64,000 bases of DNA from a virus (IMGVR_UViG_3300021400_000686:24333-88332); one strand, 5' to 3'. Numbered from the stretch's first letter, positions 4,078 to 25,163 are shown. Program-made: numbers and translations. Notes: a model not told the origin generated them from the letters alone.

Positions 4078-4453
4078 TCCCCCACTTATCGATTACGGAT
4101 CGGAAGTCTTCAACATCATGCGGAATAATACAGAACCGAGCCATACCATCAGCGCTCGGATTATATCCAACGTGGCACAGCTCGTGATACATCAGCTTTT
4201 CAAGCCTGTCCGCATCCAACGCCTCGGTGTTTCCAGTGTAAAACGTGATAATGAAGTCCGCCTCTATAAAAAGCTTCAACTTCTCTTTGACAAGCTCGGT
4301 ATCTGCAAACACCTCAAGCCCGTTTGACTTTTTTGCTTTGTCGCAATACTGGTAAACAATTCTGCAATCAGGATCATCGAGGGCGTTCAGTTCTTTGTAT
4401 TTTTGAATAACATTTTTGCCAAGCGCATCGAGGTCATCCTCTTGCCAGTACAT
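3995..4453 (-). CDS. Putative phage metallopeptidase
   Basis: LMYHELCHV...IIPHDVEDF motif. Confidence 0.7.
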   Translation of the reverse strand: MYWQEDDLDALGKNVIQKYKELNALDDPDCRIVYQYCDKAKKSNGLEVFADTELVKEKLKLFIEADFIITFYTGNTEALDADRLEKLMYHELCHVGYNPSADGMARFCIIPHDVEDFRSVIDKWGIDWVKGDDKTGRKRTTKTRRSKVQKQT

Positions 4454-5687
4454 CTGCTTCGTCCCTCCGACCGTTTGGTGCTATCTCGCGCGGAACTAAG
4501 ATTTCAGCTTCTCCGTTTGTGAAGACGCTACCGTATGTATCAATCGGCCTGATTTCCGCTTCATAAATCACACCGTTCGGATCAGGCGCATGGCCCATGC
4601 CGACTTCGCTCCCAGTAAAGGAACCCGCAACGTCTCTGTCAAACGTGTAAGACGAGAACACCGACGCCTTTTCGTATTCTTTCCCTGTCCCTCCACGATA
4701 CATCTTGATCGGGGTAACAAGAAACTCGTCAAAGGATAATGGCTCCTTTTTCTTTGCCTCGCAGTCGTACTTGTAATTTCCGTACATGATGTTCAGAGCC
4801 GCGTTGTGAACCTCGGGGCTTTGAATCATCTGTTTCGTCAGATTGTCCTTATATTCATGGTTGTACGCTCTGAACCATCCGTCTATGGTTGATTGACTCA
4901 AGTTGTCATAAAGGATTTCATCCGCTTCGTCCCGACTGATTTCGTGGAGGTTTTTTGTCACCTTTCCGAGTTTGAATTTGTAGAATTCCGAATCGATTGC
5001 GTCGCTTCCTCCTTCTTCATAAAGGGGCATCAGCTTCCCAACATTCTTGGTTGTAAAGTCGTCAACGCTATCACCGTCCTCATATTCATAGTCGTCGCGG
5101 TTCGGTCTCAATTTCTCGGTCAGATCAGACTTGACTTGTTTTTTCTGATGAACGTATTTGTCGTCCTTTACCTCAAAGTCGCCTTCTATGTCAGAGCGCC
5201 CGTGAGCTTTAAGAATCTGCTTTGCGGTCGCCACCTTTTTTTCGCCGTTTGAGGCTTCGTACTCAAATTGATCATCTCCGATCTTTTTATATGCTCTGTC
5301 ATGAGATACCGCCGTATACCCTGTCGGCATCTCTTCAAGAGACTTGCGAACAGCATCTTTAATTTCGAATGAGCTTTTTTCTTTCACCGCATCTTGATAA
5401 GCCTTTGTGTACTCGGAAGTGTCAACACTTTTTCCCGTGTCAATCCCCTTCCCCATCTTCTCGGCCTTCACGCTCTCAGCGGACTTTCCAGTCTTGTTCT
5501 CGTACGCTTCCCATGCTTCCCGTGGAGTCATGCCTTCGGTGTTGATCCCCTCAGAATTGCAAAGGCCATACGGAAGCTGTGTGCTATATGCACTATGTTT
5601 TTTTGCCTTCGGCTTTTCTTCATCGTCAGCGTCCAGTCGTAACAACCATTTAAGCCGTATTTTCTCTACAACCTTTGCTTGATTCAT
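4434..5687 (-). CDS. Leader-bearing cargo protein with LPYG module and C-terminal ADP-ribosyltransferase-like (R-S-E) domain
   Basis: IRLKWLLRLD leader; LPYGLCNSEGINTEGMTPREAW; C-terminal MYRG...FSSYTFDRDVA...GEAEILVP. Confidence 0.65.
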   Translation of the reverse strand: MNQAKVVEKIRLKWLLRLDADDEEKPKAKKHSAYSTQLPYGLCNSEGINTEGMTPREAWEAYENKTGKSAESVKAEKMGKGIDTGKSVDTSEYTKAYQDAVKEKSSFEIKDAVRKSLEEMPTGYTAVSHDRAYKKIGDDQFEYEASNGEKKVATAKQILKAHGRSDIEGDFEVKDDKYVHQKKQVKSDLTEKLRPNRDDYEYEDGDSVDDFTTKNVGKLMPLYEEGGSDAIDSEFYKFKLGKVTKNLHEISRDEADEILYDNLSQSTIDGWFRAYNHEYKDNLTKQMIQSPEVHNAALNIMYGNYKYDCEAKKKEPLSFDEFLVTPIKMYRGGTGKEYEKASVFSSYTFDRDVAGSFTGSEVGMGHAPDPNGVIYEAEIRPIDTYGSVFTNGEAEILVPREIAPNGRRDEADVLARG

Positions 5688-5699
5688 ATTGACCTCAAT

Positions 5700-6452
5700 T
5701 CAAGTATTTCTTGATCTATCCCCGTCCTCCTTTGACGCGTTCGAACTTTCCACGCTTTTCGCAAGTTGCCCCTCACTGCTGTCTATCCACGCAACGTCGT
5801 CAACCCCAACTGTTTGTGAATAAACCTTGCCTCCGCCAGAATAGTCTTGCGCCATCCTTTTTGACGGGGAAACAAACCCACCCTCTTCAATAGGCTTGCT
5901 ACTGTAAATCGTTATCTTTCCGCTCTTAAGCGCGTTGTCGGCGTCTTCTTTAGTGAAGTCAGGATAGATAAACTCGTCCTCGCCAAACGCTTCTTTCGCC
6001 GTTTTGATGTCTTCAGGCGATCTGATCCCTGTATGATAATCATCCATCATTGGATTGGACTTTTGGATAATCTCAAACTGCTTTCTTTTCGCATCCGTGA
6101 CAGGATATTGACTCGCTTTTGGCTTTGTTGTTTCAGGGGCGCTTTTCTTTGTTTGCTTGGTCTCCCTCGGCTTTTCTGGCTCGCCCTTTAACTCTTTGAG
6201 CTTTTGCAAAATCTCCGCTCTCCTTTTTCCGCCACTGCCAAATCTGCTTGTCCGTTTCAACTCCGACTCAAGGGCACTTATTGTCTCCGCATTGCCAAAC
6301 GCTTTCATCTGTCCACCGATTGGGTTCTTCTCCTCGTCAAGTGGAATATGGTTCCCGTTGACAGTAACCCAACTATCAGGCTCTTCATCAAATCGTTGTT
6401 GCCACTTATGGCGAATATGATCTATAGTATTTGTGCGCTTCATCTGTACCAA
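5700..6452 (-). CDS. Leader-bearing cargo protein with a small, possibly degenerate ART-like C-terminal domain
   Basis: IRHKWQQRFD leader; WVTVNGNHIPLD; ITIYSS...FVSPSKRMAQDYSGGGKVY...DVAWIDSSEG. Confidence 0.5.
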   Translation of the reverse strand: MVQMKRTNTIDHIRHKWQQRFDEEPDSWVTVNGNHIPLDEEKNPIGGQMKAFGNAETISALESELKRTSRFGSGGKRRAEILQKLKELKGEPEKPRETKQTKKSAPETTKPKASQYPVTDAKRKQFEIIQKSNPMMDDYHTGIRSPEDIKTAKEAFGEDEFIYPDFTKEDADNALKSGKITIYSSKPIEEGGFVSPSKRMAQDYSGGGKVYSQTVGVDDVAWIDSSEGQLAKSVESSNASKEDGDRSRNT

Positions 6453-6454
6453 CC

Positions 6455-7048
6455 TTATTCAAAATCAATTCGCCAGTCGTCCTCGTCCTCATCTGTTCCG
6501 TAGCGTGTCATCTTTTCCCCAGCAAGTGTTTCGTTATAGTTCTCGATTTTTACCCCTGTGCCAGAGTATGCGGACGTTGAGCCGTTGTCGTAAATGACGC
6601 CCTTAATGTTGGACAACTTCATTTTGCTTGTATCGTCGCCCTCGCTAAACACCTCAATATCACCGTTTCTATAAAGAATTGCGATAGAACTATCCGACCA
6701 CATATCACCATTGTTTTTGACGTCTTGTAATATCACGCTCTTCATCTCGTCCATCGAATAGCGTTCAAGAATCTGCCCGTTTGCCATTTCAATGGATTTC
6801 CCCCTCGACGGACACTTGCCTTTCATCAAATCAGCGACCTTCTTGTTTTCTTTGTCGAAATGTTGTCTAAGTTTAGGGCTTATCTTGCTCTCTTTGATTT
6901 TATCTGCAACTTTCCCTGTTGCGTGACCGTCCTCATCAAGGGGAATGTGCGTACCGTTAATTGTTATCCAGTCTTCTGGCTCCTCGTCGAAGCGGGCGTG
7001 CCACTTACTCCTGATTGTTTCGATCTGTTTATTTGTTTTCATGCCCAC
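6455..7048 (-). CDS. Leader-bearing cargo protein, unknown C-terminal domain
   Basis: IRSKWHARFD leader; WITINGTHIPLDEDG. Confidence 0.6.
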   Translation of the reverse strand: MGMKTNKQIETIRSKWHARFDEEPEDWITINGTHIPLDEDGHATGKVADKIKESKISPKLRQHFDKENKKVADLMKGKCPSRGKSIEMANGQILERYSMDEMKSVILQDVKNNGDMWSDSSIAILYRNGDIEVFSEGDDTSKMKLSNIKGVIYDNGSTSAYSGTGVKIENYNETLAGEKMTRYGTDEDEDDWRIDFE

Positions 7049-7123: not shown

Positions 7124-7414
7124 TTACTTCTGTGAAAGCTCCGCAATCTTCTGCTTGATCTTCACAACGCCCGGATTGTTACCCTGATACTTCAGAAGGT
7201 ATTTCCAGTCCTCTAAATCAAGCTTGCTTTCGACTTTTTCCACTTCCTCGGCGAAAGTATCGTCCGCGTTCGCTTCATCGAAGAATGTGGAATAATAGAA
7301 ATTCAACGCAATCCTCTCCTTGCATGCTTCCGACGGCGCTTTATCGTAAATATCCTTCCAATAGGAATTTTCGCTAAACAGCTCTCGCGCCGCGTCAACC
7401 TTACTCTTATCCAT
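7124..7414 (-). CDS. Small acidic protein, candidate partner/immunity protein of 7427-8188
   Basis: No leader; lies directly downstream of a cargo gene; has its own RBS (AGGAGG). Confidence 0.5.
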   Translation of the reverse strand: MDKSKVDAARELFSENSYWKDIYDKAPSEACKERIALNFYYSTFFDEANADDTFAEEVEKVESKLDLEDWKYLLKYQGNNPGVVKIKQKIAELSQK

Positions 7415-8257: not shown

Positions 8258-8725
8258 TCACTTAAGCGCAACAGCGACGCATTTTTCAGCGTCGCCGTCA
8301 ATCCCCTTAAGATAATTATAGGCAACGACATATTTGTCATATCGTGCCAAGTCTCTGTCTGTGACCCTCGGTAAACGACTCAAATCCATATTATGTTTTA
8401 AGTCCGCTTCCTTCACGTGTCGTGCAATCTCATTTACAGACAACCGTTTGATCTGATCCATGTAAGGCATCCCCTTCGGGTGTGTAATGTAAGACACCGC
8501 TTCCCCTATCTTTTCGCCAAACATCGCGGTGATCATCCCAATCGTTGTATCCGTATCTTCGACTGTATCATGTAAGTATGCTACTATTTTCTCCTCATCC
8601 GTCGAACACATCCGCGCAACCGCGTCTGGGTGCATCCAGTACGGAGTCCCTCCCTTGTCCACCTGTCCAAAGTGGACTCGTTTCGAAAATTCCTTCGCAA
8701 ACTCAACATCAGACATCCGCGCCAC
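8258..8725 (-). CDS. HD-domain small alarmone hydrolase-like protein (Mesh1/SAH type)
   Basis: HFGQVDKGGTPYWMHP...AYLHDTVEDT...VKEADLKHN. Confidence 0.85.
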   Translation of the reverse strand: MARMSDVEFAKEFSKRVHFGQVDKGGTPYWMHPDAVARMCSTDEEKIVAYLHDTVEDTDTTIGMITAMFGEKIGEAVSYITHPKGMPYMDQIKRLSVNEIARHVKEADLKHNMDLSRLPRVTDRDLARYDKYVVAYNYLKGIDGDAEKCVAVALK

Positions 8726-8726
8726 C

Positions 8727-8936
8727 TCACGAGAGCCGATTAACGTATTCCTCGGCCTCCTCGTCGCTAATTCCGTAACTGTGAATTAAACCGTTGAAGG
8801 CGTCAAACGCATCAGAAGAGCTTTCCCATCCTTTACGCGGAATGAACTCCTCATAAGAACCGTCTTCCGTTTTACGGTACAAATCCATGATCGTCCCGTC
8901 GTTCCATTTCGTTGCTTCGTAAATTACTTTTCCCAT
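8727..8936 (-). CDS. Small protein between the RelA-like gene and the HD hydrolase, candidate antitoxin
   Basis: Strong RBS (AAGGAGGT); has its own promoter at 8965-8993. Confidence 0.6.
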   Translation of the reverse strand: MGKVIYEATKWNDGTIMDLYRKTEDGSYEEFIPRKGWESSSDAFDAFNGLIHSYGISDEEAEEYVNRLS

Positions 8937-8964: not shown

Positions 8965-8993
8965 ATTATATCACATATTGGGCAATATGTCAA
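8965..8993 (-). promoter_or_regulatory. Sigma70 promoter with palindromic operator in the spacer
   Basis: TTGACA-TATTGCCCAATATGTGA-TATAAT; the -35 overlaps the stop codon of the RelA-like gene. Confidence 0.85.
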
Positions 8994-10183
8994 GGATTAT
9001 TCCGTCTTTTGAACGGCTTTAATTTCTCGATCCCCGGCGGATTTTTGTAGTTCTCTCTCCACCGCTCAATCTGAACCTTGTTCAACTCTTCGTTCTTGTC
9101 ACGCATTTCCTGAGTCCACTCGTCCTTCGGCGTCTTTTCATAATCCCTCTGGATTTCATATTCCTTATGGTTAAGGTCTTTGACCGCTTGGCTCTGTGGT
9201 GAGTGTACTTGCAGTTCGAAAACGCGTCCACTTGGGGCCTTTACAGAAAGGTGCACCGCACGATAAATCGCGTCCTCGTTTACCTTGCCGTCCTTTCCAA
9301 GGAACTTGTTGTCAAGCTCGATTACCTCGTAGCCTTGATCCGAGAGGTTTTTCTGCAACTTGTTTACACACCCAACGATATCTTTATTATCGCACATCGC
9401 AGTGTATCTTACAAGGTCTCCGAACTTTTCTGCAACATCGTCAACCGTTGCTTCTGGGTTCCCCGTTTCCGCGCGGAACTTTTCGAGCTTTCTAAGAGCT
9501 TTGTCCTCAATATGGCTTGCACCCTTGGAAGCGTTTTCCGTACCGTCAAGGTACATCCCCGCGTTTCCGACGGAGTCAAACAAGTCTTTCGTGATCTTCT
9601 TTTCGTCCGCGACAGCGCCCTCGAACACCTTCTTCATCCTTTCGGAGCCTTTAATTTCGCTATCGACCTTTGACGCGAGCCCGGGGATGCATGCGAACGT
9701 CTCGCCCTTTTCATTCTTTTGATAAACGATGTCCTCGTCCTTCAGGTTCGCAACGATATTCTCCCATGTGCCGGGCTTGATCCATCCTTTTTCCTCGTCT
9801 TCAAGCGCCGTTTTCTCTGCGATTTCAAGCGCTTTGGAGTATTTTGCCCCGTTCTTCAGCTTCGGGAAACTTGTCCCTTTGCTTGTGGTAGTCTTGTCCG
9901 AGAGCCTGTTTGTGTCAAGTTCACTCTTTTTCGGCTCTTTTCCTTCGTTTTTAACCGACTCATTCACTTTTTTACGAAGCTCTTGGGTCGGTTTCACGCT
10001 CTTGCTTTCCACCATTTTTTTAGCAACGTACGGATTTGCCTTGTCAAGGACGCCGTTTTCGTTAAAATGGATATGATCGCCTTCTTCTGTCGTGCGCCAC
10101 TTGCCCTTTTCTTGCGCGTCCATCCGACTTTGATAATCCGCACGAATCCGCCTTAAGATTTTATCTGTATATTTCTTGTTCAT
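8990..10183 (-). CDS. Leader-bearing cargo protein with RelA/SpoT-like nucleotidyltransferase domain (toxSAS-like)
   Basis: IRADYQSRMD leader; FGDLVRYT...YRAVHLSV...FELQVHS...K...HKEYEIQR; adjacent to an HD hydrolase. Confidence 0.75.
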   Translation of the reverse strand: MNKKYTDKILRRIRADYQSRMDAQEKGKWRTTEEGDHIHFNENGVLDKANPYVAKKMVESKSVKPTQELRKKVNESVKNEGKEPKKSELDTNRLSDKTTTSKGTSFPKLKNGAKYSKALEIAEKTALEDEEKGWIKPGTWENIVANLKDEDIVYQKNEKGETFACIPGLASKVDSEIKGSERMKKVFEGAVADEKKITKDLFDSVGNAGMYLDGTENASKGASHIEDKALRKLEKFRAETGNPEATVDDVAEKFGDLVRYTAMCDNKDIVGCVNKLQKNLSDQGYEVIELDNKFLGKDGKVNEDAIYRAVHLSVKAPSGRVFELQVHSPQSQAVKDLNHKEYEIQRDYEKTPKDEWTQEMRDKNEELNKVQIERWRENYKNPPGIEKLKPFKRRNNP

Positions 10184-14740: not shown

Positions 14741-14749
14741 GCCTTGCCC

Positions 14750-14980: not shown

Positions 14981-14981
14981 A

Positions 14982-17133: not shown

Positions 17134-17355
17134 TTATTCTTCCTCGTAATAATCGCACTCTTCTTCGCCACGAACGACCATCTCGGGCTTGTGCTCTGGA
17201 TAAGGATACATTTGGCAACTCGCTTTTCTGTAGTCGTTCGACCAAATGTCTCCGTTGTCCCTCAGCACACACGTTTTGCACTGTTCGCAAATAACCAATT
17301 TGCCGTTATCAGTAGCGCTGTCATCTTCATACCATCTTTTCGATTTCTCTGCCAT
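17134..17355 (-). CDS. Small Cys-rich protein between the ART and the glycohydrolase
   Basis: CEQC...CQMYP...KP...CDYY. Confidence 0.65.
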   Translation of the reverse strand: MAEKSKRWYEDDSATDNGKLVICEQCKTCVLRDNGDIWSNDYRKASCQMYPYPEHKPEMVVRGEEECDYYEEE

Positions 17356-17410: not shown

Positions 17411-20400
17411 TCACTTTACGGGATACTGCCCAATTACCTCAAGATCGATGTACACGGTGCCGTAATCAGACTTTGCTTTTGTCACGCGAAAACGCGTCCC
17501 TTGCTGAAGCAAAACTTCAAGCTCGTAACCCGCGGTCGAATGATGATAATCGCCATCCCATAGATAATTTTCAGACCAATGCTTAGAAAAATCGGCATCG
17601 CCAAATTCAGAGAATGGTTCCATGTACAACGCCTTTGTTCCTCTTGGAACATAGATGTTATAGATCACTTTCTTTTGCATTCCCGTGCCCTTGGCGGCAC
17701 CCGTGCTTGAGAAGCCGTATTCGATCGGCTCACGACCAACAAGCTGTTGTAAGTCTTCCGTACTACCAGTCCTCAGAAGTTCTTTATCACATCCAAGGAA
17801 GGCAGACGCTCCTCCAAAGCCAACGCCTCGCTGAACCCACATATCAAAGTCGTACGAGCTTCTTTCAATCATTTCTGTTAAGTCGCGTACTTTCTTTGGT
17901 AGAGGCCCTGAAGATTTTCCGTAGCCAATATCCCGAAGCGGATCATTGTATGAGTCATAGCTACCCGTCGTGTAGTTGTACGCCGCTTTCTTTTGTGCAA
18001 TGCTCGACTCTTTCCAAACGGAACTGCATTTGTCAAACAAAGCGTTATCTGCATCTTTCGGCTCTTGCGCCCACATCGCATTGTCTTTTCGCTTTTGTGT
18101 ATAAGCGCTTGCTTCAAAGGCGTTTTGCAAAGGCCCACCATTCAACGCCGTGATTTTGCTGTTGTTTTCGTTTATCTTAGCGTTGATATCGGCCAACTCA
18201 TTCTCGATACGTTTCTTCTCTTCGAAGCCCTTTTTGAGCTTTTGCATATTGTTTAGCTTTGCCTCGATAACGCTACGCGCATTATCGTCCGACGCGTTCT
18301 TCGCCGTTTCAAGAGCCTGTTGCAATTGGCCCTCAAGAAAACTTATACTATCATCGTCGAAACTTCCTAACGGTATCTCGAGGTCTTCCGTTGGGTGGAC
18401 TTTGTACATCTTCCCTTTCGCCACGTCGATCTTTTGCTTTAACTTGTTAGCGTCTTTGGAAAGCTTTTTGTTTTCTGCATTCAGCTCTTTTATTTTCGCG
18501 TTATTCTCTTTTTTCTTGACCGCCTCGGCCATCCCGTCGACGTCGGCTTGTAGTTCCTTGATCTTATCGCGTTGCTTCATCACGGCGTCTTTCCACGATA
18601 AGGAGCGCTTCATATTATCTCTTGACGTCCAGTTCGGCTCGCCTTTATCATTGAACGCGTACCCGTACTTCTCCGAAAGCTCTTTTTGATTTTGCGCTAT
18701 CGCGCTATCCACTTCCTTAAGTGCGTCGTTTATAGCGTCTCGCTCCGAAGAAGGCAAAAGCCCAACTTCGTACGCCTTATCTGGAGTCATTCCGTTAAGT
18801 TTGAACCCATCTAACTTCTTCTGCTTTTCCTCAAGCAAGTCGTATAGGTCTGTCACTTTTTGCGCCCTGTCGAAGAAATCATCTACCGTCTTGACCTTAT
18901 CACCAGCGCCACCTTTTTCTATGAATTTTTCAAAATCTTCATATGTCGGTATCGCCGTGCCGTTTGCGTCTGTAAGCTGTTGCTTTTTCAGCGCGTCAAT
19001 TTCGGCTTGCGCACTATTGATCTTCTTTTGAAGTTGCTTGATTGTACCTTTGTATTCCTTTTTGGGCGGTTCTTTGGATGCTTTTAACGTCTCCGCGTCC
19101 GCAACGATCAGCTCTTTGTTGTTTATAATATTCTTGATCTTCTCTTTGTCTATCGTGTTGCCTGTTTCGTCTTGAACGGAACCGTTATAATTGACAGCGT
19201 ATCCATACCCATTTTCTTCAATCACGTCTGCCGCTTCCATCATCTTTTTGAACACGGGATTGTAGTCTTCCTTGTCCTCGTCGGAAAGCTCCCAAGCGCC
19301 ACCTACTCCATGGTCGGACAGAAACTTTTCCTCCGCTTCACAAGCGTTCAAAAAGTTGTTGTATGCTTCATACTTATCAAGAACCTCTTTGAAATTCTCG
19401 CTCTTAATTTCCTCGTCGCTGAACCCAAACGACTTAAGGTTTGCCTCCGCCTCTTCCTTGTTTTTCCCCTTAACATGAGGAATGCTCGGTGCCGTCTGTT
19501 CAGTCCCAACCGTGTCGCCTAAACCAGAAAGTTTTTTCTTGTTCTCGGCCTTCTGATCCTTTGCTCCCTTTAGTAGGTCGCCGTAATATCCTACCATGTC
19601 CTTCTTTTGAAGGATGTCTTGAACCTTGTCCTTGTCATATCCGTGAACGGTGCCATTGCTTGGTGCATAATCATAAATCCCAAATTCATGAAGCTTGCTA
19701 CCCGCTTTACTCACGTCCTCGTACATGTCGTAAAACTCAAGTTGCTTTTCTTTTGATAACTTCGAAAACCAACTTGCGTCATTCGGATCAATGTTGTTTT
19801 CTTCTTTCCAATCTTCTGCGTCCTGATATGCATCGTAGAAATTACCAAGAGCCTCGTACTTCTTGATCACATTGTCAAAGTCATCCGAATTGATCTCCTC
19901 ATCGGTGAAGCCAAAATCTTTAAGCGTACTCGTAAAAGTGTCTATATCCGCATCGTTGTCATTTATGGCCTTCTGCAATTCCTCAACGGCTTGCGTCGAA
20001 TCGACGGGCGCTTCACCATAAGGAATATCGTCTGGATCATTCGATTGCTCTGGAGTATTCCCACCAACATTCTCCGTACCAAGCGCCTTCTGATTGTCAA
20101 TCGACTTCTGAACAGCTTCCTTCTCTTCCGCCGTGAAATACTCGCCTGTAAGCGGGTTCACGAACCCATCACCGCTTTTTTGGAATCCGCCCTCGCCCTC
20201 GAACTCATCTATGCTACCGCCAAGCGCGTACTCTAAATCGCCCTTACTAAGACTCGAAATGTCGGTGTCGCTCGGCTCTTCGCCCAACCCAAGCGGATCG
20301 TCCATTGGCTCGATCTCCAAGTCCTTCGGAATTTCGGATTCTGGCTCTTGATAATCGTACCCCTTGAAATATTTGTTTATTTCATTCCGTTGCTCGTAAA

Positions 20401-21178
20401 GGTCGTCAAGTTGCTCCATTTCCTCGTCGGTAAACAATTCGCCCGATTCATCGAATATCTTTTGAATAGCATTGTTTACGTTCTCAAGTTCTGAAGCAAG
20501 CTCCGTTTGGCTCATGTCGGAATAGTTGGGTTTGTCCTCTATCCCGAGTTTGTCCATCAGCTCTTTTTCTTTTTTACCTAATTCGTAATAGTCTTCCCAG
20601 TCGGTCTCGATCTTGTTGTTGTCGTAGTCGGACAACTTTTCCTGTACCTTCTTCAGTTCCGCCTCAAGTGCCTCTTTAGTTTCTACACCCTCGCTCTCGT
20701 TTTGCTTGAGATTATCAAGGGCGGATGTAATCTTGTACTGTTCCTCTTGGAGTTCCCTTGCCTCTTTAATATAATTGTCCGACTTTTCTTTGTCGTAGGC
20801 ATGTGACCACGCGTTGTCCATTGCCTCATCTACTTTTTTCTTTATTTCTTCGAGCTTGTCGTTTAGCTCGCTCTCCGTCATGCCAGAATAGGCATCGCCT
20901 TCTGGGTTTTCAGCGTCTATTACATCGCCCTCGCCCTTCTTTTGCTTCTCAGCATACATTTCATCAGCGGTTTTGCCCGTTTCGTTCTCGTATGCCTCCC
21001 AAGCCTCAGATGGCGTCATTCCCGTTGTATCGATCCCAAGGTCTTTGCAAAGGCCGTAAGGCAAACGCGTGCCCCATCCAGTAGCCTTCTTCGGTTCCTC
21101 GTGTTCTTCCCCTTCTTCGTCGGCGTCCATGCGAGCGCAATATTTAAGTCTAATTGTGTAGAGTATATTGTCTCTCAT
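17411..21178 (-). CDS. Large leader-bearing cargo protein with C-terminal VIP2-like ADP-ribosyltransferase
   Basis: IRLKYCARMD leader; LPYG module; YTTGSYDSYNDPLR...VQRG...FSSTG...ELEVLL (R-S-ExE). Confidence 0.85.
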   Translation of the reverse strand: MRDNILYTIRLKYCARMDADEEGEEHEEPKKATGWGTRLPYGLCKDLGIDTTGMTPSEAWEAYENETGKTADEMYAEKQKKGEGDVIDAENPEGDAYSGMTESELNDKLEEIKKKVDEAMDNAWSHAYDKEKSDNYIKEARELQEEQYKITSALDNLKQNESEGVETKEALEAELKKVQEKLSDYDNNKIETDWEDYYELGKKEKELMDKLGIEDKPNYSDMSQTELASELENVNNAIQKIFDESGELFTDEEMEQLDDLYEQRNEINKYFKGYDYQEPESEIPKDLEIEPMDDPLGLGEEPSDTDISSLSKGDLEYALGGSIDEFEGEGGFQKSGDGFVNPLTGEYFTAEEKEAVQKSIDNQKALGTENVGGNTPEQSNDPDDIPYGEAPVDSTQAVEELQKAINDNDADIDTFTSTLKDFGFTDEEINSDDFDNVIKKYEALGNFYDAYQDAEDWKEENNIDPNDASWFSKLSKEKQLEFYDMYEDVSKAGSKLHEFGIYDYAPSNGTVHGYDKDKVQDILQKKDMVGYYGDLLKGAKDQKAENKKKLSGLGDTVGTEQTAPSIPHVKGKNKEEAEANLKSFGFSDEEIKSENFKEVLDKYEAYNNFLNACEAEEKFLSDHGVGGAWELSDEDKEDYNPVFKKMMEAADVIEENGYGYAVNYNGSVQDETGNTIDKEKIKNIINNKELIVADAETLKASKEPPKKEYKGTIKQLQKKINSAQAEIDALKKQQLTDANGTAIPTYEDFEKFIEKGGAGDKVKTVDDFFDRAQKVTDLYDLLEEKQKKLDGFKLNGMTPDKAYEVGLLPSSERDAINDALKEVDSAIAQNQKELSEKYGYAFNDKGEPNWTSRDNMKRSLSWKDAVMKQRDKIKELQADVDGMAEAVKKKENNAKIKELNAENKKLSKDANKLKQKIDVAKGKMYKVHPTEDLEIPLGSFDDDSISFLEGQLQQALETAKNASDDNARSVIEAKLNNMQKLKKGFEEKKRIENELADINAKINENNSKITALNGGPLQNAFEASAYTQKRKDNAMWAQEPKDADNALFDKCSSVWKESSIAQKKAAYNYTTGSYDSYNDPLRDIGYGKSSGPLPKKVRDLTEMIERSSYDFDMWVQRGVGFGGASAFLGCDKELLRTGSTEDLQQLVGREPIEYGFSSTGAAKGTGMQKKVIYNIYVPRGTKALYMEPFSEFGDADFSKHWSENYLWDGDYHHSTAGYELEVLLQQGTRFRVTKAKSDYGTVYIDLEVIGQYPVK

Positions 21179-21189: not shown

Positions 21190-21723
21190 TTACCTATCTT
21201 TTGGCCGTCTCTTCAACTCGCTATTGAAAATAGCCTTTCTCTCGATTGAAAGCGCAAGATTTTCACCGTCCCGATCTGGGTTTTTCTTGAACGCTTTAAT
21301 TTTCTTCTCGCAGTCATCAATCTGCTTTTTTATCGTATCCACATCCGCCTTTGACGCTTCCTTCGTCCATGCCTCGCGCATCTTCACCAAGCGTTTTCTA
21401 AACTTCTCGGCTTCTGCATCTTCCTTGCGTCTCTTTGCAGATGTATACTCTTGCGCATACATTCTATGAAGTTCGTCCTCGTCGATGTCCTTGATTTTGA
21501 CATCACTGCCTACGCCCTTCTTTTCCTTCTGCTTGTAGAACTCCGTTGGTGACTCTTTCGTCGCTTTTTGTACGCGATCCCAAACTTCTCTCGGTGTCAG
21601 TCCCTCAGTATCTATGCCTAAATCTTTCGCGATGCCGTAAGGAAGGCTCACGTTCCACCCATCAAGGCGCTTTTTCTGTTTATATCTAATCGTGTTTGTT
21701 GTTTTGTTGATATTCATACTCAC
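21190..21723 (-). CDS. Leader-bearing small protein (LPYG module plus coiled coil)
   Basis: IRYKQKKRLD leader; LPYGIAKDLGIDTEGLTPREVW. Confidence 0.65.
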   Translation of the reverse strand: MSMNINKTTNTIRYKQKKRLDGWNVSLPYGIAKDLGIDTEGLTPREVWDRVQKATKESPTEFYKQKEKKGVGSDVKIKDIDEDELHRMYAQEYTSAKRRKEDAEAEKFRKRLVKMREAWTKEASKADVDTIKKQIDDCEKKIKAFKKNPDRDGENLALSIERKAIFNSELKRRPKDR

Positions 21724-22114: not shown

Positions 22115-23515
22115 TTAAAAGAAATTCGCCAAGTTGAACTGTGCTTTCAGCTCAAGCTCGGCAAATCCGTTCGCAGAAGCGTCGACCATATCCTTGAGCT
22201 TCATATCTGGGAACCCCTCAAGTTGTAATAGGTAGGGCTCATTCCAGTCGGCGGAAACAATATCAAAATTACCAGCTTGCCACTGCGCCGCCATCGGTGT
22301 TGCCCTCGCCTCTTTACTGCCTGTCTCTGGAACCGCCGTAACGTCAAACCCTGAAAGGAATTTGATGTACATTTCAGCTTGATCCTTACCCGCTTGCCCG
22401 GGGTCTTGAGGAATTCTAACGCGAACTTGTTGCTTGTATTTCGCGTTGTCGGATTGGGCGGTCAGTTTGATAATGTTCCGAACATCGGAAGCCGATAGCG
22501 CACGGTTGATCACATCGGCGACTACATATCGCCCGTTCTTTCTTTTGCCAATCAAAACACCCGCCGTATACGCGGGGTCATTGTTCTCGTCTTTTTCTGT
22601 CGCCGCCAAGTCCCAACACCGCACCCACTGAATAACATCGTCGGGGACAAACGGAAGAATGTTGCCAAGCTGTTCGCGTTTGAAATACAACCCAGCCGAC
22701 GGCTTGATCTTCCAGTTACCCATCAGAAGGCGTTCGCGCTCGACCGTTGGTAGCGCCTTTAGGTTCGCAAGGTACTGTGGGTTCGCCTTCAGCAAGGCTT
22801 GATTATCGTAAATAGTTGCCGAAATAAATGTAACAGAGCGCGGTTCCGCTCTCTCTTCTGGCGTCGTAAGGTTGAACTGTTTACATAATTCTTCTCTCGT
22901 GTCAGCCCAAAAGATTTCATTGTCTCTTCGGATCATCCACCGAATTTTCCCACTCCGCTCTGGAATCGGATATCCTGTCTCTTGGTCGATCCACCATGAA
23001 ATGAATTTTGCTACCCACGAATTTGCATCTGGGTTACATGTGCCGATCACGTACGGTTTAACGCCACACATCGAGCGATTACGGGAAAGCATATAAAAAA
23101 AGACATATTCGCTAAAATGGCAAAGCTCGTCATACTCAATTCCACAGATTTGTGACCCGTGATAGTTCTGCACCTCTTCATCGCGCTCTATATGTCTGAA
23201 TGATACCCTTGATAATTGTTCTCCGTTTTTATCGTTAAATATCCACGCGCTTTCCCCTCGCCTGATTTCGGCCCCTCGTATGCCAGAATACATATCACGC
23301 GCATTGTCCCACAATCCGCCCTCGTTATAGATTTGGTTCGCGTTTTTTCGAAAGATTACACATCCGAAGCCCTTAGTGTTTTTGTATCTAAGGGGATAAA
23401 GCAACTCCGCATGTGTCTTCCCAGACCCCGCCGCTCCACCGTAGATAATAATTGACGCGGGGTTTGACAGGAACTTTTCCTGAGCTCCCCGTTGAGGCCG
23501 TAGTATCTTCGCCAC
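22115..23515 (-). CDS. terL: Terminase large subunit
   Basis: Walker A YGGAAGSGKT, Walker B GIEYDEL, GTCNP, nuclease domain WDLA...DMVDA. Confidence 0.93.
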   Translation of the reverse strand: MAKILRPQRGAQEKFLSNPASIIIYGGAAGSGKTHAELLYPLRYKNTKGFGCVIFRKNANQIYNEGGLWDNARDMYSGIRGAEIRRGESAWIFNDKNGEQLSRVSFRHIERDEEVQNYHGSQICGIEYDELCHFSEYVFFYMLSRNRSMCGVKPYVIGTCNPDANSWVAKFISWWIDQETGYPIPERSGKIRWMIRRDNEIFWADTREELCKQFNLTTPEERAEPRSVTFISATIYDNQALLKANPQYLANLKALPTVERERLLMGNWKIKPSAGLYFKREQLGNILPFVPDDVIQWVRCWDLAATEKDENNDPAYTAGVLIGKRKNGRYVVADVINRALSASDVRNIIKLTAQSDNAKYKQQVRVRIPQDPGQAGKDQAEMYIKFLSGFDVTAVPETGSKEARATPMAAQWQAGNFDIVSADWNEPYLLQLEGFPDMKLKDMVDASANGFAELELKAQFNLANFF

Positions 23516-24013
23516 TTAATCACCCCCTGTGGCGTCTTCTTCCCCTTTCTCTGGGTCTTCCTCTTCTTTTTCGATTTCTGGCAAATAAATAACGACCCCA
23601 CCGTCATCCTCATCCTGAGAATTCACTGTAAGGTCGCCCATATTCTTCTTCATCGCGTCAATACGCGCCTGTGACTCTTTTGCTTTCCGATCGTCTTCGC
23701 TCGCCTTGAAGAAATAATCGATCAACAGCTCCATCGCCCGTTGATTTCCGCCAAGGGCCATCTGGAACAACTTTGTAGCCACCGCATTTGCGTTCACTTG
23801 CTCATCCTCGGTATACCCCGCGTCCTTGACAAGTTCTTTTGCTCTTCCAACAGCGGGCATACTCATGAGCTCATTCATCGCTTTGCGAATGTCGGCTTTT
23901 CTTCTTCTCGCCTCTCCAGAAGCAATTCCGCCTTTTCGGCAAATCTCGCTTCTCTCGGCTTTGCTAACTTCCCCAAGCGACCGAAGATTTTTCTCGCGTA
24001 CGTTTTTTGCCAC
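23516..24013 (-). CDS. terS: Terminase small subunit
   Basis: Abuts terL; NLRSL...EICRKGGIASGEARRRK signature. Confidence 0.75.
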   Translation of the reverse strand: MAKNVREKNLRSLGEVSKAERSEICRKGGIASGEARRRKADIRKAMNELMSMPAVGRAKELVKDAGYTEDEQVNANAVATKLFQMALGGNQRAMELLIDYFFKASEDDRKAKESQARIDAMKKNMGDLTVNSQDEDDGGVVIYLPEIEKEEEDPEKGEEDATGGD

Positions 24014-24203
24014 GTTTCGCCCTCCTCAAATCATCTTCGGTTAAATTATCGTCTATTTATTTTAAACGCCTGTAAAGGCCGTTTCTCAACGTTTAAGAGC
24101 CACCGTAAGTGTGGCGGCCCCCAACATTCAGCTTGTTCAACTTTGGATATTGCATTCAATCCCCTTTTAGAGAACCGCCACGAGAAAGGCCGTTGGCCCC
24201 TCT

Positions 24204-24425
24204 TTACAGAAAGTCCATGTCGTCGATCTCGTCCGCGCCAAGGCTAATCATTTCTTCCCCGTCTTTTATAACCAGTCTTGAATATCCGTCTTCCTCGTCG
24301 TCCCCACTTGAATAGATAAATGCGACGCCCTCAAGCTCGTCACCGTCTTTTGTTTTGATCGACACCCTGTGTTTTCCGCTTACCGCCTCATACATCATAT
24401 CCTCGATATCGCCAATGTTCAGCAT
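24204..24425 (-). CDS. Candidate immunity protein for the Ntox50 toxin
   Basis: Small and acidic, directly downstream of the toxin; VSIKTKDGDELEG...EIDDMDFL. Confidence 0.6.
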   Translation of the reverse strand: MLNIGDIEDMMYEAVSGKHRVSIKTKDGDELEGVAFIYSSGDDEEDGYSRLVIKDGEEMISLGADEIDDMDFL

Positions 24426-24437
24426 TTCGACCTCCCT

Positions 24438-25163
24438 TTACGGGATTACTGGAACTATATGCGTTCCGTCCCGTGATAAAATTATTTTCCCCCACTTTGT
24501 CGGAACATGTGTATTGGAATCGCCCTTCTTGACCGCCTCACCAATCACTTCCGTATGTTCGAAAAGGACTCTAAGATTCCCACTTTCGTAAAGAACCGTT
24601 CCCTCTGTAATGTACTTATCCACAAGCTTCTGTACATCCTCTTCTGGAATTGTAAGATAACTCGGATACTTCTTTTCCGCAACCCTTTTTTGATATTCTT
24701 TTGTGCCGGGGATATGTTCCCTCTGTTTATCCTTTTTCACGGCCTGTGAATAAGTACCTTCTTTAAGCCTTTCCCCAACGATTTTCTTAAGTTGGTCTTG
24801 GCTCATTGCCCTGTACTTATCTCTTTCCGCCTTCGCTTGTTGTTTGGCGCTCTGGCCTTTATTTTGGCCGTTTTCCGACGTTTTCTTCTCCTCGTCGGTA
24901 CTTTTATCGCCGTTCTCGTTATCGCGAGGATTTTCAGCCTTTTTGGTTTTTGCCTCTTCCTCGTTCTTCTCGATCTCCTTGCCGATCTCTCCCCCAAGGC
25001 TTCCGTCGTCTTCAAGTGGGACTGGCTGATGGTTTATTGTAATAAACTGCTTCTTAGGATCGTGATTAACTATATGAATTTTTTTCTTCCGCTTCTCATC
25101 GCGAGCGTCCATCCTTGCAAGATATTTAGTTTTGATTTCTCTGAGAAGCTCGTAAACGTTCAT
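24438..25163 (-). CDS. Leader-bearing cargo protein with Bacterial toxin 50 (Ntox50) RNase-like domain
   Basis: IKTKYLARMD leader; KQREHIPGTKEY...SYLTIPEEDVQKLVDKY...TKWGKIILSRDGTHIVP. Confidence 0.75.
   Translation of the reverse strand: MNVYELLREIKTKYLARMDARDEKRKKKIHIVNHDPKKQFITINHQPVPLEDDGSLGGEIGKEIEKNEEEAKTKKAENPRDNENGDKSTDEEKKTSENGQNKGQSAKQQAKAERDKYRAMSQDQLKKIVGERLKEGTYSQAVKKDKQREHIPGTKEYQKRVAEKKYPSYLTIPEEDVQKLVDKYITEGTVLYESGNLRVLFEHTEVIGEAVKKGDSNTHVPTKWGKIILSRDGTHIVPVIP

What the first reader, a model, noticed from the sequence alone, without database searches (positions are those of the whole stretch)
4434..25163. Ten head-region genes share an N-terminal I-R-x-K-W-x-x-R-x-D leader: candidate capsid-targeting and cleavage signal for injected cargo
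Seen, leaders in order: IRLKWLLRLD-A (4434), IRHKWQQRFD-E (5700), IRSKWHARFD-E (6455), IRKKWMLRTD-G (7427), IRADYQSRMD-A (8990), IRRRWTIRMD-A (12288), IRKKLLFRLD-A (14982), IRLKYCARMD-A (17411), IRYKQKKRLD-G (21190), IKTKYLARMD-A (24438). All lie within the first 25 residues and are fused to unrelated C-terminal domains. The small genes between them lack the leader. R-x-D sites also occur in the DUF2213 protein (IRFD-S, RRAD-E, RLD-G) and the portal N-terminus (RED-G). The MuF here has no toxin extension. Established: T4 internal proteins and Alt use an N-terminal capsid-targeting sequence removed by the prohead protease; MuF polymorphic toxins are head-associated. Inference: this is a MuF-independent polymorphic cargo system in which a basic helix docks on the scaffold or portal, the DUF2213 protease cleaves after R-x-D, and the payloads are injected with the DNA.
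Basis: partly seen in the sequence, partly recalled or inferred. Interest (0 to 1): 0.92.

Follow-up and report, generated by a model that had tools for sequence, protein, structure and literature searches.

The report
Cleavable head-loading leader on phage toxins
Ten unrelated toxin-like proteins of an uncultured 88-kb gut phage start with the same roughly 19-residue basic helix, which ends where the phage's head protease probably cuts, so they are probably loaded into the capsid and trimmed there: a new variant of the phage T4 head-targeting tag, carrying toxins that other phages fuse to the MuF head protein.

Summary
The motif I-[RK]-x-[KRD]-[WYLQF]-x-x-R-x-D occurs 10 times on the coding strand of the 88-kb genome. 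Every copy lies 16-22 residues from the Met of a minus-strand gene between terminase and MuF (0.1 hits expected by chance). The ten protein bodies share no BLAST similarity.

The reading is largely supported, but by inference only.
- The DUF2213 N-domain models as a T4 gp21/herpesvirus assemblin-type protease with invariant His-Ser-His.
- R-x-D followed by S, G or E is conserved at three domain borders of DUF2213 itself, and in the N-termini of the portal and the capsid protein.
- Coliphage TLS has the same head module. Published Edman sequencing puts the mature capsid N-terminus directly after K-N-D, at the homologous site.

Two cargo cassettes copy characterised MuF toxin-immunity sets: a Bxa-like ADP-ribosyltransferase with a hydrolase, and an alarmone-synthetase-like protein with a (p)ppApp hydrolase. 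Neither carries a MuF domain.

The leader is usually followed by one of three small modules. Leader plus the 'LPYGL' module defines 306 protein clusters with varied toxin ends, all found in phage head modules.

Packaging, cleavage and injection are untested. The scan has found analogous shared leaders, with other sequences, in other phages, but not this one. Verdict: a new variant of a known kind.

The parts
24438..25163 (-). Cargo 1: leader (25107-25163) + FITINHQPVPLEDDG module + Ntox50 (BECR RNase toxin)
   Evidence: N-terminus. Pfam Ntox50 at E=1.4e-14. Ntox50 is listed among MuF-linked toxins in PMC3482391.
24204..24425 (-). 73-aa gene directly downstream of the Ntox50 cargo: candidate immunity protein, no leader
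   Evidence: The role is inferred from position only.
22115..23515 (-). Terminase large subunit
   Evidence: Pfam Terminase_6N and Terminase_6C.
21190..21717 (-). Cargo 2: leader (21661-21717) + LPYGI module + short helical tail
17411..21178 (-). Cargo 3 (1255 aa): leader (21125-21178) + LPYGL module + long body ending in a Bxa-like ADP-ribosyltransferase
   Evidence: phrog_16625 'Bxa ADP-ribosyl transferase' at E=1e-28, residues 859-1253. N-terminus.
17134..17355 (-). 73-aa Cys-rich gene after the ART cargo: candidate non-enzymatic immunity protein (Bsi-like position)
   Evidence: The layout matches Bxa/Bsi/BAH in PMC11699363. The role is inferred.
16270..17073 (-). ADP-ribosylglycohydrolase: candidate enzymatic immunity to the ART cargo (BAH-like)
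   Evidence: Pfam ADP_ribosyl_GH at E=1.7e-38. phrog_6572.
14982..16229 (-). Cargo 4: leader (16170-16229) + LPYGI module + C-terminus like the C-terminal part of MuF 'head morphogenesis' proteins
   Evidence: phrog_4728 positions 324-590 of 591, E=1.5e-15. The start at ATG 16229 has a GGAGG upstream.
14402..14980 (-). Two small leaderless genes (14750-14980 and 14402-14740) after cargo 4: candidate immunity genes
   Evidence: Conserved in L014 and L015. The role is inferred.
12288..14363 (-). Cargo 5 (691 aa): leader (14307-14363) + LPYGL module + body of unknown function
   Evidence: phrog_8314. An AF2 model of residues 1-80 gives helix 3-21, a disordered acidic linker, then helix-loop-helix 38-71.
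10180..12276 (-). Portal protein (Phage_portal_3) with a C-terminal NUDIX domain; conserved R-E-D|G site near residue 30
   Evidence: Pfam. The [YF]R.D[GDE][YF][VI]N motif is conserved in 11 relatives.
8990..10183 (-). Cargo 6: leader (10118-10183) + WRTTEEGDHIHFNENG module + alarmone-synthetase-like / XopAD-C-like domain
   Evidence: phrog_7625 C-terminal part. NCBIfam XopAD C-terminus at E=4e-15. Weak match to a small alarmone synthetase, PDB 8vx3, E=0.01.
8258..8936 (-). 69-aa gene (8727-8936) plus HD-domain (p)ppApp-hydrolase-like gene (8258-8725): candidate immunity pair for cargo 6
   Evidence: PDB 7smg '(p)ppApp hydrolase' at E=1.8e-31. Pfam HD_4. The Apk2/Aph1 layout is described in PMC11699363.
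7427..8182 (-). Cargo 7: leader (8135-8182) + GNWGHKGIPGHQGGS module + unknown body
7124..7414 (-). 96-aa leaderless gene after cargo 7: candidate immunity protein
   Evidence: Conserved with cargo 7 in L015 and L016.
6455..7042 (-). Cargo 8: leader (6986-7042) + WITINGTHIPLDEDG module + unknown body
5700..6443 (-). Cargo 9: leader (6387-6443) + WVTVNGNHIPLDEE module + unknown body
   Evidence: Homologues share the N-terminus but have different C-termini, two of them with HExxH.
4434..5687 (-). Cargo 10: leader (5631-5687) + LPYGL module + unknown body
3995..4453 (-). Putative phage metallopeptidase (alternative candidate processing enzyme)
   Evidence: Pfam PhageMetallopep at E=5e-23. Absent from the leader-bearing loci L019, L022 and L023.
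3190..4077 (-). MuF-type minor head protein without a toxin extension
   Evidence: Pfam Phage_Mu_F at residues 208-271 of 295. phrog_324.
2308..3156 (-). Radical-SAM protein (PA0069/Rv2578c type) inside the head module; not linked to the leader
   Evidence: Pfam and NCBIfam. Absent from other leader-bearing loci.
306..1907 (-). DUF2213 (Pa193_gp24 family) protein: N-terminal assemblin/gp21-like protease domain + acidic scaffold + basic C-terminal domain; R-x-D sites at residues 14-16, 201-203 and 465-467
   Evidence: Pfam DUF2213. PHROG 530 'head maturation protease'. PDB 9b40 Pa193 gp24. Fold hits 5jbl Z 8.4 and 1vzv Z 7.2. Invariant H80, S130 and H160 and conserved R.D sites.

Best explanation
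The roughly 19-residue N-terminal leader is an amphipathic basic helix. Hydrophobic residues sit at motif positions -3, 1, 5 and 9, and Arg/Lys at 2, 4 and 8. The helix ends in R-[LMF]-D and is followed by A, E or G and then an acidic, disordered linker.

I read it as a T4-CTS-like propeptide that brings a set of interchangeable toxins and effectors into the assembling procapsid. There the protease domain of the DUF2213 protease-scaffold protein removes it by cutting after the Asp. This is the same basic-x-Asp site that the enzyme uses in the capsid protein N-arm, the portal N-terminus and its own scaffold.

The mature cargo keeps one of three small N-terminal modules (LPYGL helix-loop-helix, WITVNGxH or GNWGH). 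It stays inside the head and leaves with the DNA. Adjacent leaderless genes (an ADP-ribosylhydrolase, a (p)ppApp hydrolase and small ORFs) protect the producing cell.

Shown here:
- the leader and its statistics;
- the head-module context;
- the toxin/immunity identities;
- the protease fold with a conserved His-Ser-His;
- the conserved R-x-D sites;
- the experimental P1-Asp cut in the homologous TLS capsid protein.

Inferred:
- packaging of the ten proteins;
- cleavage of their leaders;
- the docking partner (the acidic scaffold is my guess);
- ejection into the next cell.
For: 1. Ten of ten motif hits are at N-termini of head-module genes, against 0.1 expected. Conservation is at the peptide level.
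2. The same leader heads 8 or more genes in each close relative (L014, L015, L016). Variant leaders (IRxxLxxRx1-4RxD-G; YRxRRxxRLD-A/S) head cargo genes in more distant phages with the same head type (L004, L007, L019, L020, L022, L023, L024, L030).
3. A profile of leader plus LPYGL finds 306 clusters. In the 143 listed representatives that have the module, it lies within the first 110 residues in 140. An upstream R-x-D is present in 91 of the 143, against 10% of background windows. The logo is xIRx[KR]xxxR[MLF]D|A[DE]EEE. C-termini include ADPrib_exo_Tox, Zeta_toxin, Gln_amidase, PBECR1 and NUDIX.
4. The best fold matches to the DUF2213 N-domain among 48,161 chains are T4 gp21 protease (Z 8.4, rmsd 3.0, 130 aa) and VZV protease (Z 7.2). 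H80, S130 and H160 are invariant in 28 homologues.
5. R-[LFY]-D|S is invariant at the DUF2213 N-terminus (in all 73 N-termini tabulated from the 120 listed homologues). R-x-D|[GE] follows the protease domain, and RLD|GKS lies before the C-terminal domain. The portal has [YF]R-x-D|[GDE] and the MCP has R-F-D|S (H-F-D|S in this phage).
6. Coliphage TLS has the same module: portal_3, MuF, DUF2213 (38% identical) and the Major_capside MCP. Edman sequencing of its mature MCP reads ASDMGIW (PMC11447400), which follows K-N-D in the gene. That position aligns with the F-D|S of this phage's MCP. The TLS protease-scaffold has 12 [RK]xD[AGS] sites against 1.1 expected.
7. Cargo C-termini match the C-terminal effector parts of MuF proteins and Bxa. 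The immunity-like neighbours match (p)ppApp hydrolase and ADP-ribosylglycohydrolase, as in Apk2/Aph1 and Bxa/BAH/Bsi (PMC11699363).
8. The AF2 model places R-M-D at the end of helix 3-21, followed by a low-confidence acidic linker. That is an exposed position suitable for a protease.
Against: - There is no virion proteome, N-terminal sequence or cultured host for this phage or any leader-bearing relative.
- This phage's own MCP has H-F-D, not R-F-D, at the presumed site.
- Relatives with the same protease, portal and MCP sites carry no leader cargo (L006, L010, L011, FP_Brigit). Co-occurrence therefore runs one way only.
- LPYGL-module proteins also exist without an R-x-D leader. One sits in an SPP1-like head module without DUF2213 (L017). 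The module rather than the leader could therefore be the packaging determinant.
- The DUF2213 model has only moderate confidence (pLDDT 64), and Foldseek gave no significant hit.
- In Pa193 the homologue is described only as a scaffolding protein (PMC11456595).
Confidence: 0.6

Rival explanations
1. The leader is an uncleaved docking helix. It tethers the cargo non-covalently to MuF, the portal or the scaffold, replacing the covalent MuF fusion of classical MuF toxins. On this view the terminal R-x-D is part of the binding surface, not a cleavage site.
For: - MuF lacks a toxin extension here, while the cargo bodies are of MuF-toxin type.
- The conserved part of the leader (I, R, K/R, W/Y) extends well upstream of R-x-D.
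- The portal and DUF2213 N-termini contain similar segments that could simply be structural.
Against: - The leader always ends with R-x-D followed by a small residue and an acidic disordered linker. The same tripeptide marks domain borders in the protease-scaffold and the experimentally cut MCP site of TLS.
- Tandem leaders each end in R-[LF]-D.
Confidence: 0.15
2. The true capsid-loading or co-ejection determinant is the second-tier module (LPYGL helix-loop-helix, WITVNGxH or GNWGH). The R-x-D leader is only a removable pro-piece, for example one that keeps the toxin inactive or unfolded until the head matures.
For: - The LPYGL module is more conserved than the leader. It occurs at N-termini with at least two different leader types, including in an SPP1-like phage without DUF2213.
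- Single family members give weak SAP, Rho_N and E3_binding Pfam hits, suggesting a helix-extended-helix motif that might bind DNA.
- The module has high model confidence.
Against: - No single second-tier module is shared by all ten cargo proteins. Only the leader is.
- Fold search of the module gave no significant match.
- Only one leaderless context was examined.
Confidence: 0.15
3. The leader is the recognition sequence for another conserved enzyme of the head module, either the radical-SAM protein (2308-3156) or the PhageMetallopep protein (3995-4453). That enzyme would modify or cut the cargo.
For: - Both genes sit between MuF and DUF2213 in this phage and its closest relatives.
- An earlier scan note (e1-127136) describes a shared phage N-terminal tag tied to a radical-SAM enzyme.
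Against: - tblastn finds neither gene in L019, L022 or L023. These loci carry R-x-D-leader cargo, and their coverage spans MuF through DUF2213 to the MCP.
- The rSAM is of the PA0069/Rv2578c type without a SPASM domain.
- The metallopeptidase is also present in leaderless relatives (L003, L005, L006).
Confidence: 0.04
4. The shared N-termini have no targeting role. They are a conserved 5' cassette end that promotes recombinational swapping of toxin modules, or simply a remnant of duplication.
For: Polymorphic toxin loci do exchange C-terminal cassettes by recombination at conserved segments (PMC3482391). Cargo content differs between close relatives at the same position: a Zeta_toxin in L015 sits where this window has the alarmone-synthetase-like cargo.
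Against: - Third-codon identity among the ten leaders is only 0.34, and Arg and Ile codons differ, so there is too little DNA identity for homologous recombination.
- The peptide motif is kept across phages whose portals are only 60-68% identical, and across 306 clusters.
- The distance from the Met is fixed.
Confidence: 0.04

Closest known systems
Phage T4 capsid targeting sequence (CTS) of internal proteins IPI-III and Alt, removed by prohead protease gp21
   Same: A short N-terminal peptide is shared by unrelated head-internal proteins and ends at the prohead protease's recognition site. The protease has the same fold class (the DUF2213 model matches gp21 best). The payloads include an ADP-ribosyltransferase, as Alt is.
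   Different: - The sequence is different and the leader is longer (about 19 aa of basic amphipathic helix, against about 10 aa).
- P1 is Asp with a basic P3, rather than (L/I)-x-Glu.
- The protease is fused to the scaffold.
- The cargo consists of polymorphic toxins with immunity genes.
- A second tier of small N-terminal modules follows the leader.
- Nothing has been tested experimentally here.
MuF polymorphic toxins (Jamet et al. 2017, PMC5576092), including Bxa (PMC11699363) and Apk2
   Same: The head-morphogenesis location, the variable C-terminal toxin domains (ART, alarmone-synthetase-like, BECR RNase, Zeta, Gln deamidase) and the downstream enzymatic plus non-enzymatic immunity genes. 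Three cargo C-termini hit the C-terminal parts of MuF PHROGs or Bxa.
   Different: The defining N-terminal MuF domain is absent from all ten cargo proteins. MuF is a separate 295-aa protein without an extension. A short leader replaces the covalent MuF anchor, and there are ten toxins per genome rather than one.
Propeptide-bearing ejection proteins of giant phages (phiKZ, SPN3US) processed by the gp175/gp245 prohead protease
   Same: Many head proteins are cut by one prohead protease at a short motif with an acidic P1 (PMC5694885, PMC7411985, PMC10052503; listed).
   Different: Those propeptides are long and not a single shared leader. The motif is S/A/G-x-E, and the phages are unrelated jumbo myoviruses of Gram-negative hosts.
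DUF2213 / Pa193_gp24 protease-scaffold of T1-like and PB1-like phages (TLS hspA; Pa193 gp24, PDB 9b40)
   Same: A homologous N-domain (38% identity to TLS hspA; E=1.5e-12 to Pa193 gp24). The same gene order: portal_3, MuF, DUF2213, decoration protein, Major_capside MCP. The MCP is N-terminally processed (TLS Edman data; Pa193 MCP is modelled from residue 66).
   Different: Those phages have compact head modules with no leader-bearing cargo. Protease activity and specificity of DUF2213 have not been shown biochemically in any of them, as far as the papers I read say.

Membership tests
T4-type capsid targeting sequence (CTS) system | The same short peptide sits at the extreme N-terminus of several otherwise unrelated proteins of one phage | tested here: met
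   Ten of ten motif hits are N-terminal, and the bodies show no pairwise BLAST similarity.
T4-type capsid targeting sequence (CTS) system | The peptide ends at the recognition site of the phage's own prohead protease | tested here: inconclusive
   R-x-D recurs at conserved sites in DUF2213, the portal and the MCP. The homologous TLS MCP site is cut after K-N-D. There are no cleavage data for this phage.
T4-type capsid targeting sequence (CTS) system | The peptide is necessary and sufficient for encapsidation and is absent from the mature virion protein | not testable with these tools
   This needs virion proteomics or N-terminomics and reporter fusions.
MuF polymorphic toxin family | N-terminal MuF (PF04233/PF06152-type) domain in the same polypeptide as the toxin | tested here: not met
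   None of the ten cargo proteins has a MuF hit in Pfam. PHROG hits cover only the C-terminal, non-MuF parts of MuF-family profiles.
MuF polymorphic toxin family | A variable C-terminal toxin with an adjacent immunity gene, encoded in the head-morphogenesis module | tested here: met
   Ntox50, a Bxa-like ART and an alarmone-synthetase-like domain. The neighbours are ARH, a (p)ppApp hydrolase and small ORFs. All lie between TerL and MuF/DUF2213.
Assemblin / T4 gp21-type prohead serine protease (for the DUF2213 N-domain) | Assemblin-like fold | tested here: met
   The top two of 48,161 chains are 5jbl_A (Z 8.4, rmsd 3.0, 130 aa) and 1vzv_A (Z 7.2); 8j3s and 1fl1 also appear. The model pLDDT is only 64 and the Foldseek E-values are not significant.
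Assemblin / T4 gp21-type prohead serine protease (for the DUF2213 N-domain) | Conserved catalytic Ser and His residues | tested here: inconclusive
   H80, S130 and H160 are invariant in 28 homologues, and also present in TLS hspA. Their spatial arrangement and equivalence to the gp21 triad were not checked.
Assemblin / T4 gp21-type prohead serine protease (for the DUF2213 N-domain) | Demonstrated proteolytic activity on head proteins | not testable with these tools
   The evidence is indirect only: MCP processing in TLS, T1 and Pa193, which encode no other head protease annotated in the stretches I read.
SAP/HeH DNA-binding motif (for the LPYGL module) | Helix-extended loop-helix fold with sequence similarity to SAP, LEM or Rho_N | tested here: inconclusive
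   The model shows helix 38-51, a loop and helix 60-71. Single members give weak Pfam SAP, Rho_N or E3_binding hits. The fold search gave no significant match.

The most novel reading that the evidence does not exclude
The leader and the three small modules form a portable, two-tier 'address code' for loading proteins into phage heads. The first tier is a short propeptide matched to the specificity of each phage lineage's head protease: R-x-D for DUF2213 heads, and possibly other leaders such as KKKYxSPxI[DE]IxE elsewhere. The second tier is an exchangeable adaptor (LPYGL, WITVNGxH or GNWGH) that holds the cargo on the DNA or portal for ejection. This code would operate across hundreds of gut-phage lineages. 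It would explain how MuF-type toxins can be multiplied to ten per virion, and it could be used to load chosen proteins into phage capsids.
Probability: 0.25. Interest if true: 0.8.

Novelty: new variant of a known kind. Interest (0 to 1): 0.62.

Why it matters
How phages put non-structural proteins into their heads is understood mechanistically only for a few models, chiefly T4 and to some extent P1 and the phiKZ-like phages. MuF polymorphic toxins are thought to ride in capsids through their MuF domain, but this has not been shown.

This finding offers a short, sequence-defined leader. It comes with a specific, experimentally anchored prediction for the cut site: after Asp in basic-x-Asp. It appears to have freed the same toxin repertoire from MuF, allowing ten toxin-immunity cassettes in one gut phage. 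The family is large (306 clusters at 50% identity) and has no Pfam model over its N-terminus.

If confirmed, it would have four consequences:
- It would assign a function and a specificity to DUF2213.
- It would give a rule for predicting virion-delivered effectors in Lachnospiraceae- and Oscillospiraceae-type gut phages.
- It would make the question 'are MuF-type toxins really packaged and injected?' directly testable.
- It would provide a tag for loading proteins into capsids.

Tried and rejected
- **Complex prediction.** Full-length DUF2213 against the N-terminal 70 aa of cargo 5 scored 0.01 (mark 0.32), which is no verdict. It is not used as evidence either way.
- **Foldseek, DUF2213 model against PDB.** No hit at E<=0.001. 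gp21 and EBV protease appear only at low probability. The VIA-align wide search was needed.
- **Foldseek, leader+LPYGL model.** Nothing significant.
- **ESM Atlas look-up of the N-terminal 80 aa.** No usable hit.
- **Depletion test for internal R-[hydrophobic]-D sites in cargo bodies.** 4 observed against 3.7 expected, so the test is uninformative.
- **Leader-only HMM on portal-related IMG/VR loci.** It missed the variant leaders; they were found by reading N-termini.
- **The search for related loci with the leader+LPYGL alignment.** Only 3 of 252 pattern matches were confirmed, because the query is short.
- **Word-indexed homology searches with the WITVNG and GNWGH N-termini.** These returned only 5-6 clusters each, so the spread of those two modules is not established.
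- **Contexts for alternative-leader members P0059, P0105 and P0069, and for the R-x-D member P0090.** These were contigs of 4 kb or less and gave no information.
- **DNA search of the phage collection.** Only tRNA and terminase fragments were found. The nearest cultured phage by MCP, Faecalibacterium phage FP_Brigit (58% identity), has no leader cargo.
- **Radical-SAM and metallopeptidase as leader partners.** Rejected on co-occurrence.
- **Literature searches.** No paper describing this leader or the LPYGL module turned up. The library is incomplete, so prior description cannot be excluded.

Full report
**What the window is.** The window is the right-hand 64 kb of a single 88,332-bp contig. 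Almost all genes are on the minus strand. The region in question is the packaging and head module. Read along the minus strand it contains:
- small and large terminase (23516-24013, 22115-23515);
- a tRNA-Thr (21751-21825);
- the portal, fused to a NUDIX domain (10180-12276);
- a phage metallopeptidase (3995-4453);
- MuF without any extension (3190-4077);
- a radical-SAM gene (2308-3156);
- a 533-aa DUF2213 protein (306-1907).

A cement/decoration protein and a Major_capside-type MCP lie just outside the window. Homologues of the DUF2213 protein carry the source names 'Lachnospiraceae bacterium' MAG and 'Myoviridae sp.'. The nearest cultured phage by MCP is Faecalibacterium phage FP_Brigit, at 58% identity.

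**The observation.** The finding's coordinates are the stop ends of minus-strand ORFs, and the leaders are at the other ends.
- A regex for the motif finds exactly ten matches in six frames of the window, all at N-termini of long ORFs. The whole genome adds one match, in a non-coding plus frame. Shuffled genomes give 0.1 on average.
- Each ATG is preceded by a Shine-Dalgarno-like purine run. Counted from those ATGs the Asp is residue 16-22, most often 19. The leader carries a net charge of +1 to +5.
- Hydrophobic residues recur at motif positions -3, 1, 5 and 9, and basic ones at 2, 4 and 8. That is the pattern of an amphipathic helix. AlphaFold2 with a 72-row alignment predicts helix 3-21 and then a low-confidence acidic linker.
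- Invariant Ile and Arg use several synonymous codons, and third-position identity is 0.34, so the constraint is on the peptide.
- Beyond residue 75 the ten proteins have no pairwise BLAST similarity.
- The small genes between them have no leader.

Directly after the leader and linker come three alternative small modules: LPYG[LI]xK..GI.T.G.TPxEAW (five proteins), W[IV]T[IV]NGxH[IV]PLDE (three, with a weak fourth) and GNWGHKGxPGxxGGS (one).

**What the cargo proteins are.**
- Pfam names only one: Ntox50, a BECR-fold RNase toxin. Zhang et al. list Ntox50 among toxins that are fused to MuF elsewhere (PMC3482391).
- PHROGs show that three other C-termini match the C-terminal, non-MuF parts of 'head morphogenesis/minor head protein' families, or the Bxa ADP-ribosyltransferase.
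- The 1255-aa ART cargo is followed by a 73-aa Cys-rich ORF and an ADP-ribosylglycohydrolase. This is the layout shown experimentally for Bxa with its two immunity proteins, Bsi and BAH (PMC11699363).
- The cargo after the portal gives a weak small-alarmone-synthetase match, plus a match to the C-terminus of XopAD-type effectors. It is followed by a 69-aa ORF and an HD protein that matches the solved (p)ppApp hydrolase at E=1.8e-31. This is the Apk2/Aph1 layout described in the same paper.

These are therefore MuF-type polymorphic toxin-immunity cassettes in which the MuF domain is missing and a short leader stands in its place.

**Spread of the leader.**
- Portal-based retrieval from IMG/VR gave two classes of relatives. 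Compact relatives with portals about 50% identical have TerL, portal, (metallopeptidase), MuF, DUF2213, cement protein and MCP, with no leader genes (L006, L010, L011). Closer relatives (L004, L007; portals 60-68% identical) carry variant leaders such as IRKSLKRRRRED-G or IRHNLNQRMRMD-G in front of the same three modules.
- Very close relatives (L014-L016) have eight or more leader genes each. Some cargo is exchanged between them: a Zeta-toxin cargo in L015 sits where this window has the alarmone-synthetase-like one.
- A profile of leader plus LPYGL, searched against 1.84 billion representatives, found 306 clusters at E<=1e-3. Almost all hits were at the extreme N-terminus of proteins of 50-1886 aa.
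- Of the 143 listed representatives with the module, 140 have it within the first 110 residues. An upstream R-x-D is present in 91 of them, against 10% of control windows. The logo is xIRx[KR]xxxR[MLF]D|A[DE]EEE. Some members have two tandem leaders.
- The Pfam-recognisable C-termini are ADP-ribosyltransferase exotoxin, Zeta toxin, glutamine deamidase, PBECR1, NUDIX and DUF3626.
- Every genomic context of an R-x-D member that was long enough showed the same head type: Phage_portal_3, MuF, DUF2213 and Major_capside (L019, L020, L022, L023, L030).
- No Pfam, PHROG or NCBIfam model covers the N-terminal region. I found no paper describing it.

**Is DUF2213 the protease, and does it cut after R-x-D?** PHROGs label the family 'head maturation protease'. 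The only solved homologue, Pa193 gp24, is described as a scaffolding protein (PMC11456595).
- *Fold.* A model of the N-domain (pLDDT 64) was aligned to 48,161 PDB representatives. The top two matches were T4 gp21 capsid assembly protease (Z 8.4, rmsd 3.0 Å, 130 residues) and varicella-zoster protease (Z 7.2), with HCMV and KSHV proteases further down. Foldseek alone was not significant.
- *Catalytic residues.* His80, Ser130 and His160 are invariant in 28 homologues.
- *Conserved sites in DUF2213 itself.* The alignment shows three conserved R-x-D sites at domain borders: R-[LFY]-D|S at residue 14-17 (in all 73 tabulated N-termini), R-x-D|[GE] just after the protease domain, and R-L-D|G-K-S before the basic C-terminal domain.
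- *Sites in other head proteins.* The portal has [YF]-R-x-D|[GDE] about 30 residues in. The MCP has R-F-D|S about 35 residues in, and H-F-D|S in this phage. These sites are also present in leaderless relatives, as expected if the cargo leaders exploit an older maturation system.
- *Experimental anchor.* Coliphage TLS has the same module: Phage_portal_3, MuF, a DUF2213 protein 38% identical to this one and annotated 'capsid maturation protease', a decoration protein and a Major_capside MCP. Its authors determined the mature MCP N-terminus by Edman degradation as ASDMGIW (PMC11447400). In the gene this follows ...G-A-K-N-D. That Asp aligns with the Asp of F-D|S in this phage's MCP.
- *Site enrichment in the TLS scaffold.* The TLS protease-scaffold contains 12 [RK]-x-D-[AGS] sites, against 1.1 expected (0 of 2000 shuffles).
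- *Further support from Pa193.* Its MCP is modelled only from residue 66, and its portal lacks the first 93 residues.

Taken together, basic-x-Asp followed by a small residue is a well-supported recognition motif for this protease family. All ten leaders end in it.

**Mechanism proposed.**
1. The cargo genes are expressed with the head genes.
2. The basic amphipathic helix brings each protein into the procapsid. My guess for the partner is the very acidic scaffold segment of the DUF2213 protein, but this is inference, and the complex prediction gave no verdict.
3. On maturation the protease cuts the MCP N-arm, the portal N-terminus, its own scaffold and the leaders after Asp.
4. The cargo stays in the head. 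It now begins with an acidic linker and one of the small modules.
5. It leaves with the DNA.
6. Leaderless neighbours neutralise the toxins in the producing cell.

Steps 1 and 6 rest on gene order and homology. Step 3 rests on the evidence above. Steps 2, 4 and 5 rest on analogy with T4 and on the unproven MuF-toxin model.

**Rivals.**
- An uncleaved docking helix, and a division of labour in which the second-tier module is the real loading signal, both remain possible. The second is encouraged by LPYGL proteins with a different N-terminus (KKKYxSPxI[DE]IxE). One of these sits next to the terminase of an SPP1-like head module lacking DUF2213.
- A radical-SAM or metallopeptidase partner was suggested by an earlier scan note about another phage tag. 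It is disfavoured because both genes are missing from leader-bearing loci that span MuF to the MCP, and because the rSAM is of the PA0069/Rv2578c type.
- A purely recombinational or vestigial explanation is contradicted by the synonymous-site divergence and the wide conservation of the peptide.

**Comparison and novelty.** In function this resembles the T4 capsid targeting sequence. In content it resembles the MuF polymorphic toxins. It is a member of neither in the strict sense. The defining MuF domain was tested and is absent, and the defining CTS behaviours (necessity, sufficiency, removal) cannot be tested here. The scan has reported analogous shared leaders, with other sequences, in several large phages, so the general kind is recurring. 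This particular leader, its Asp-specific site tied to DUF2213, its three-module second tier and its link to MuF-type toxin cassettes appear to be undescribed. I rate it a new variant of a known kind, with interest 0.62 and confidence 0.6 in the main reading.

Noticed in passing
window 10180-12276 (and L004, L006, L019, L030): The portal protein carries a C-terminal NUDIX domain. Relatives have much longer portal fusions: 1137-1620 aa, one with NUDIX plus an ADP-ribosyltransferase exotoxin domain. Effectors are therefore also fused directly to the portal in this phage group.
   Followed up: partly
window 2308-3156: A radical-SAM gene of the PA0069/Rv2578c/'mobile pair B' type sits between MuF and the protease-scaffold gene. 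It is found only in the closest relatives (L015, L016). Its function in a head module is unexplained.
   Followed up: partly
window 21751-21825: A tRNA-Thr (TGT) gene lies inside the head module, between the terminase and the first downstream cargo gene.
   Followed up: no
L027:4413-5522 (coliphage TLS hspA): The TLS DUF2213 protease-scaffold contains 12 [RK]-x-D-[AGS] sites against 1.1 expected (0 of 2000 shuffles). This matches the Edman-defined K-N-D|A cut in its capsid protein and suggests wholesale self-digestion of the scaffold.
   Followed up: yes
L017:2217-3440 and proteins P0040, P0043, P0050, P0055, P0059, P0060, P0074: A subgroup of LPYGL-module proteins has a different N-terminus (KKKYxSPxI[DE]IxE) instead of the R-x-D leader. 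The one long context is an SPP1-like head module (Phage_min_cap2, no DUF2213), with the gene next to the terminase.
   Followed up: partly
proteins P0064, P0065, P0122, P0154; L019:10001-11533; L020:10001-10798: Some family members carry two tandem leaders, each ending in R-[LF]-D (for example ..RRQHRLDSRKVRLDDE..).
   Followed up: no
window 17134-17355; L019:7847-8116; L020:9597-9926: Small Cys-rich ORFs (Pfam Cys_rich_CPCC in the relatives) recur next to cargo genes. They may be zinc-binding immunity proteins.
   Followed up: no
L016:1001-1764: In one close relative the homologue of the GNWGH cargo (window 7427-8182) is split into two ORFs. This suggests a frameshift or decay of that cassette.
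   Followed up: no
window 8990-10183: The C-terminal domain of this cargo matches the extreme C-terminus of XopAD/skwp type III effectors of plant pathogens (NCBIfam, E=4e-15). The domain shared with those effectors has no assigned activity.
   Followed up: no
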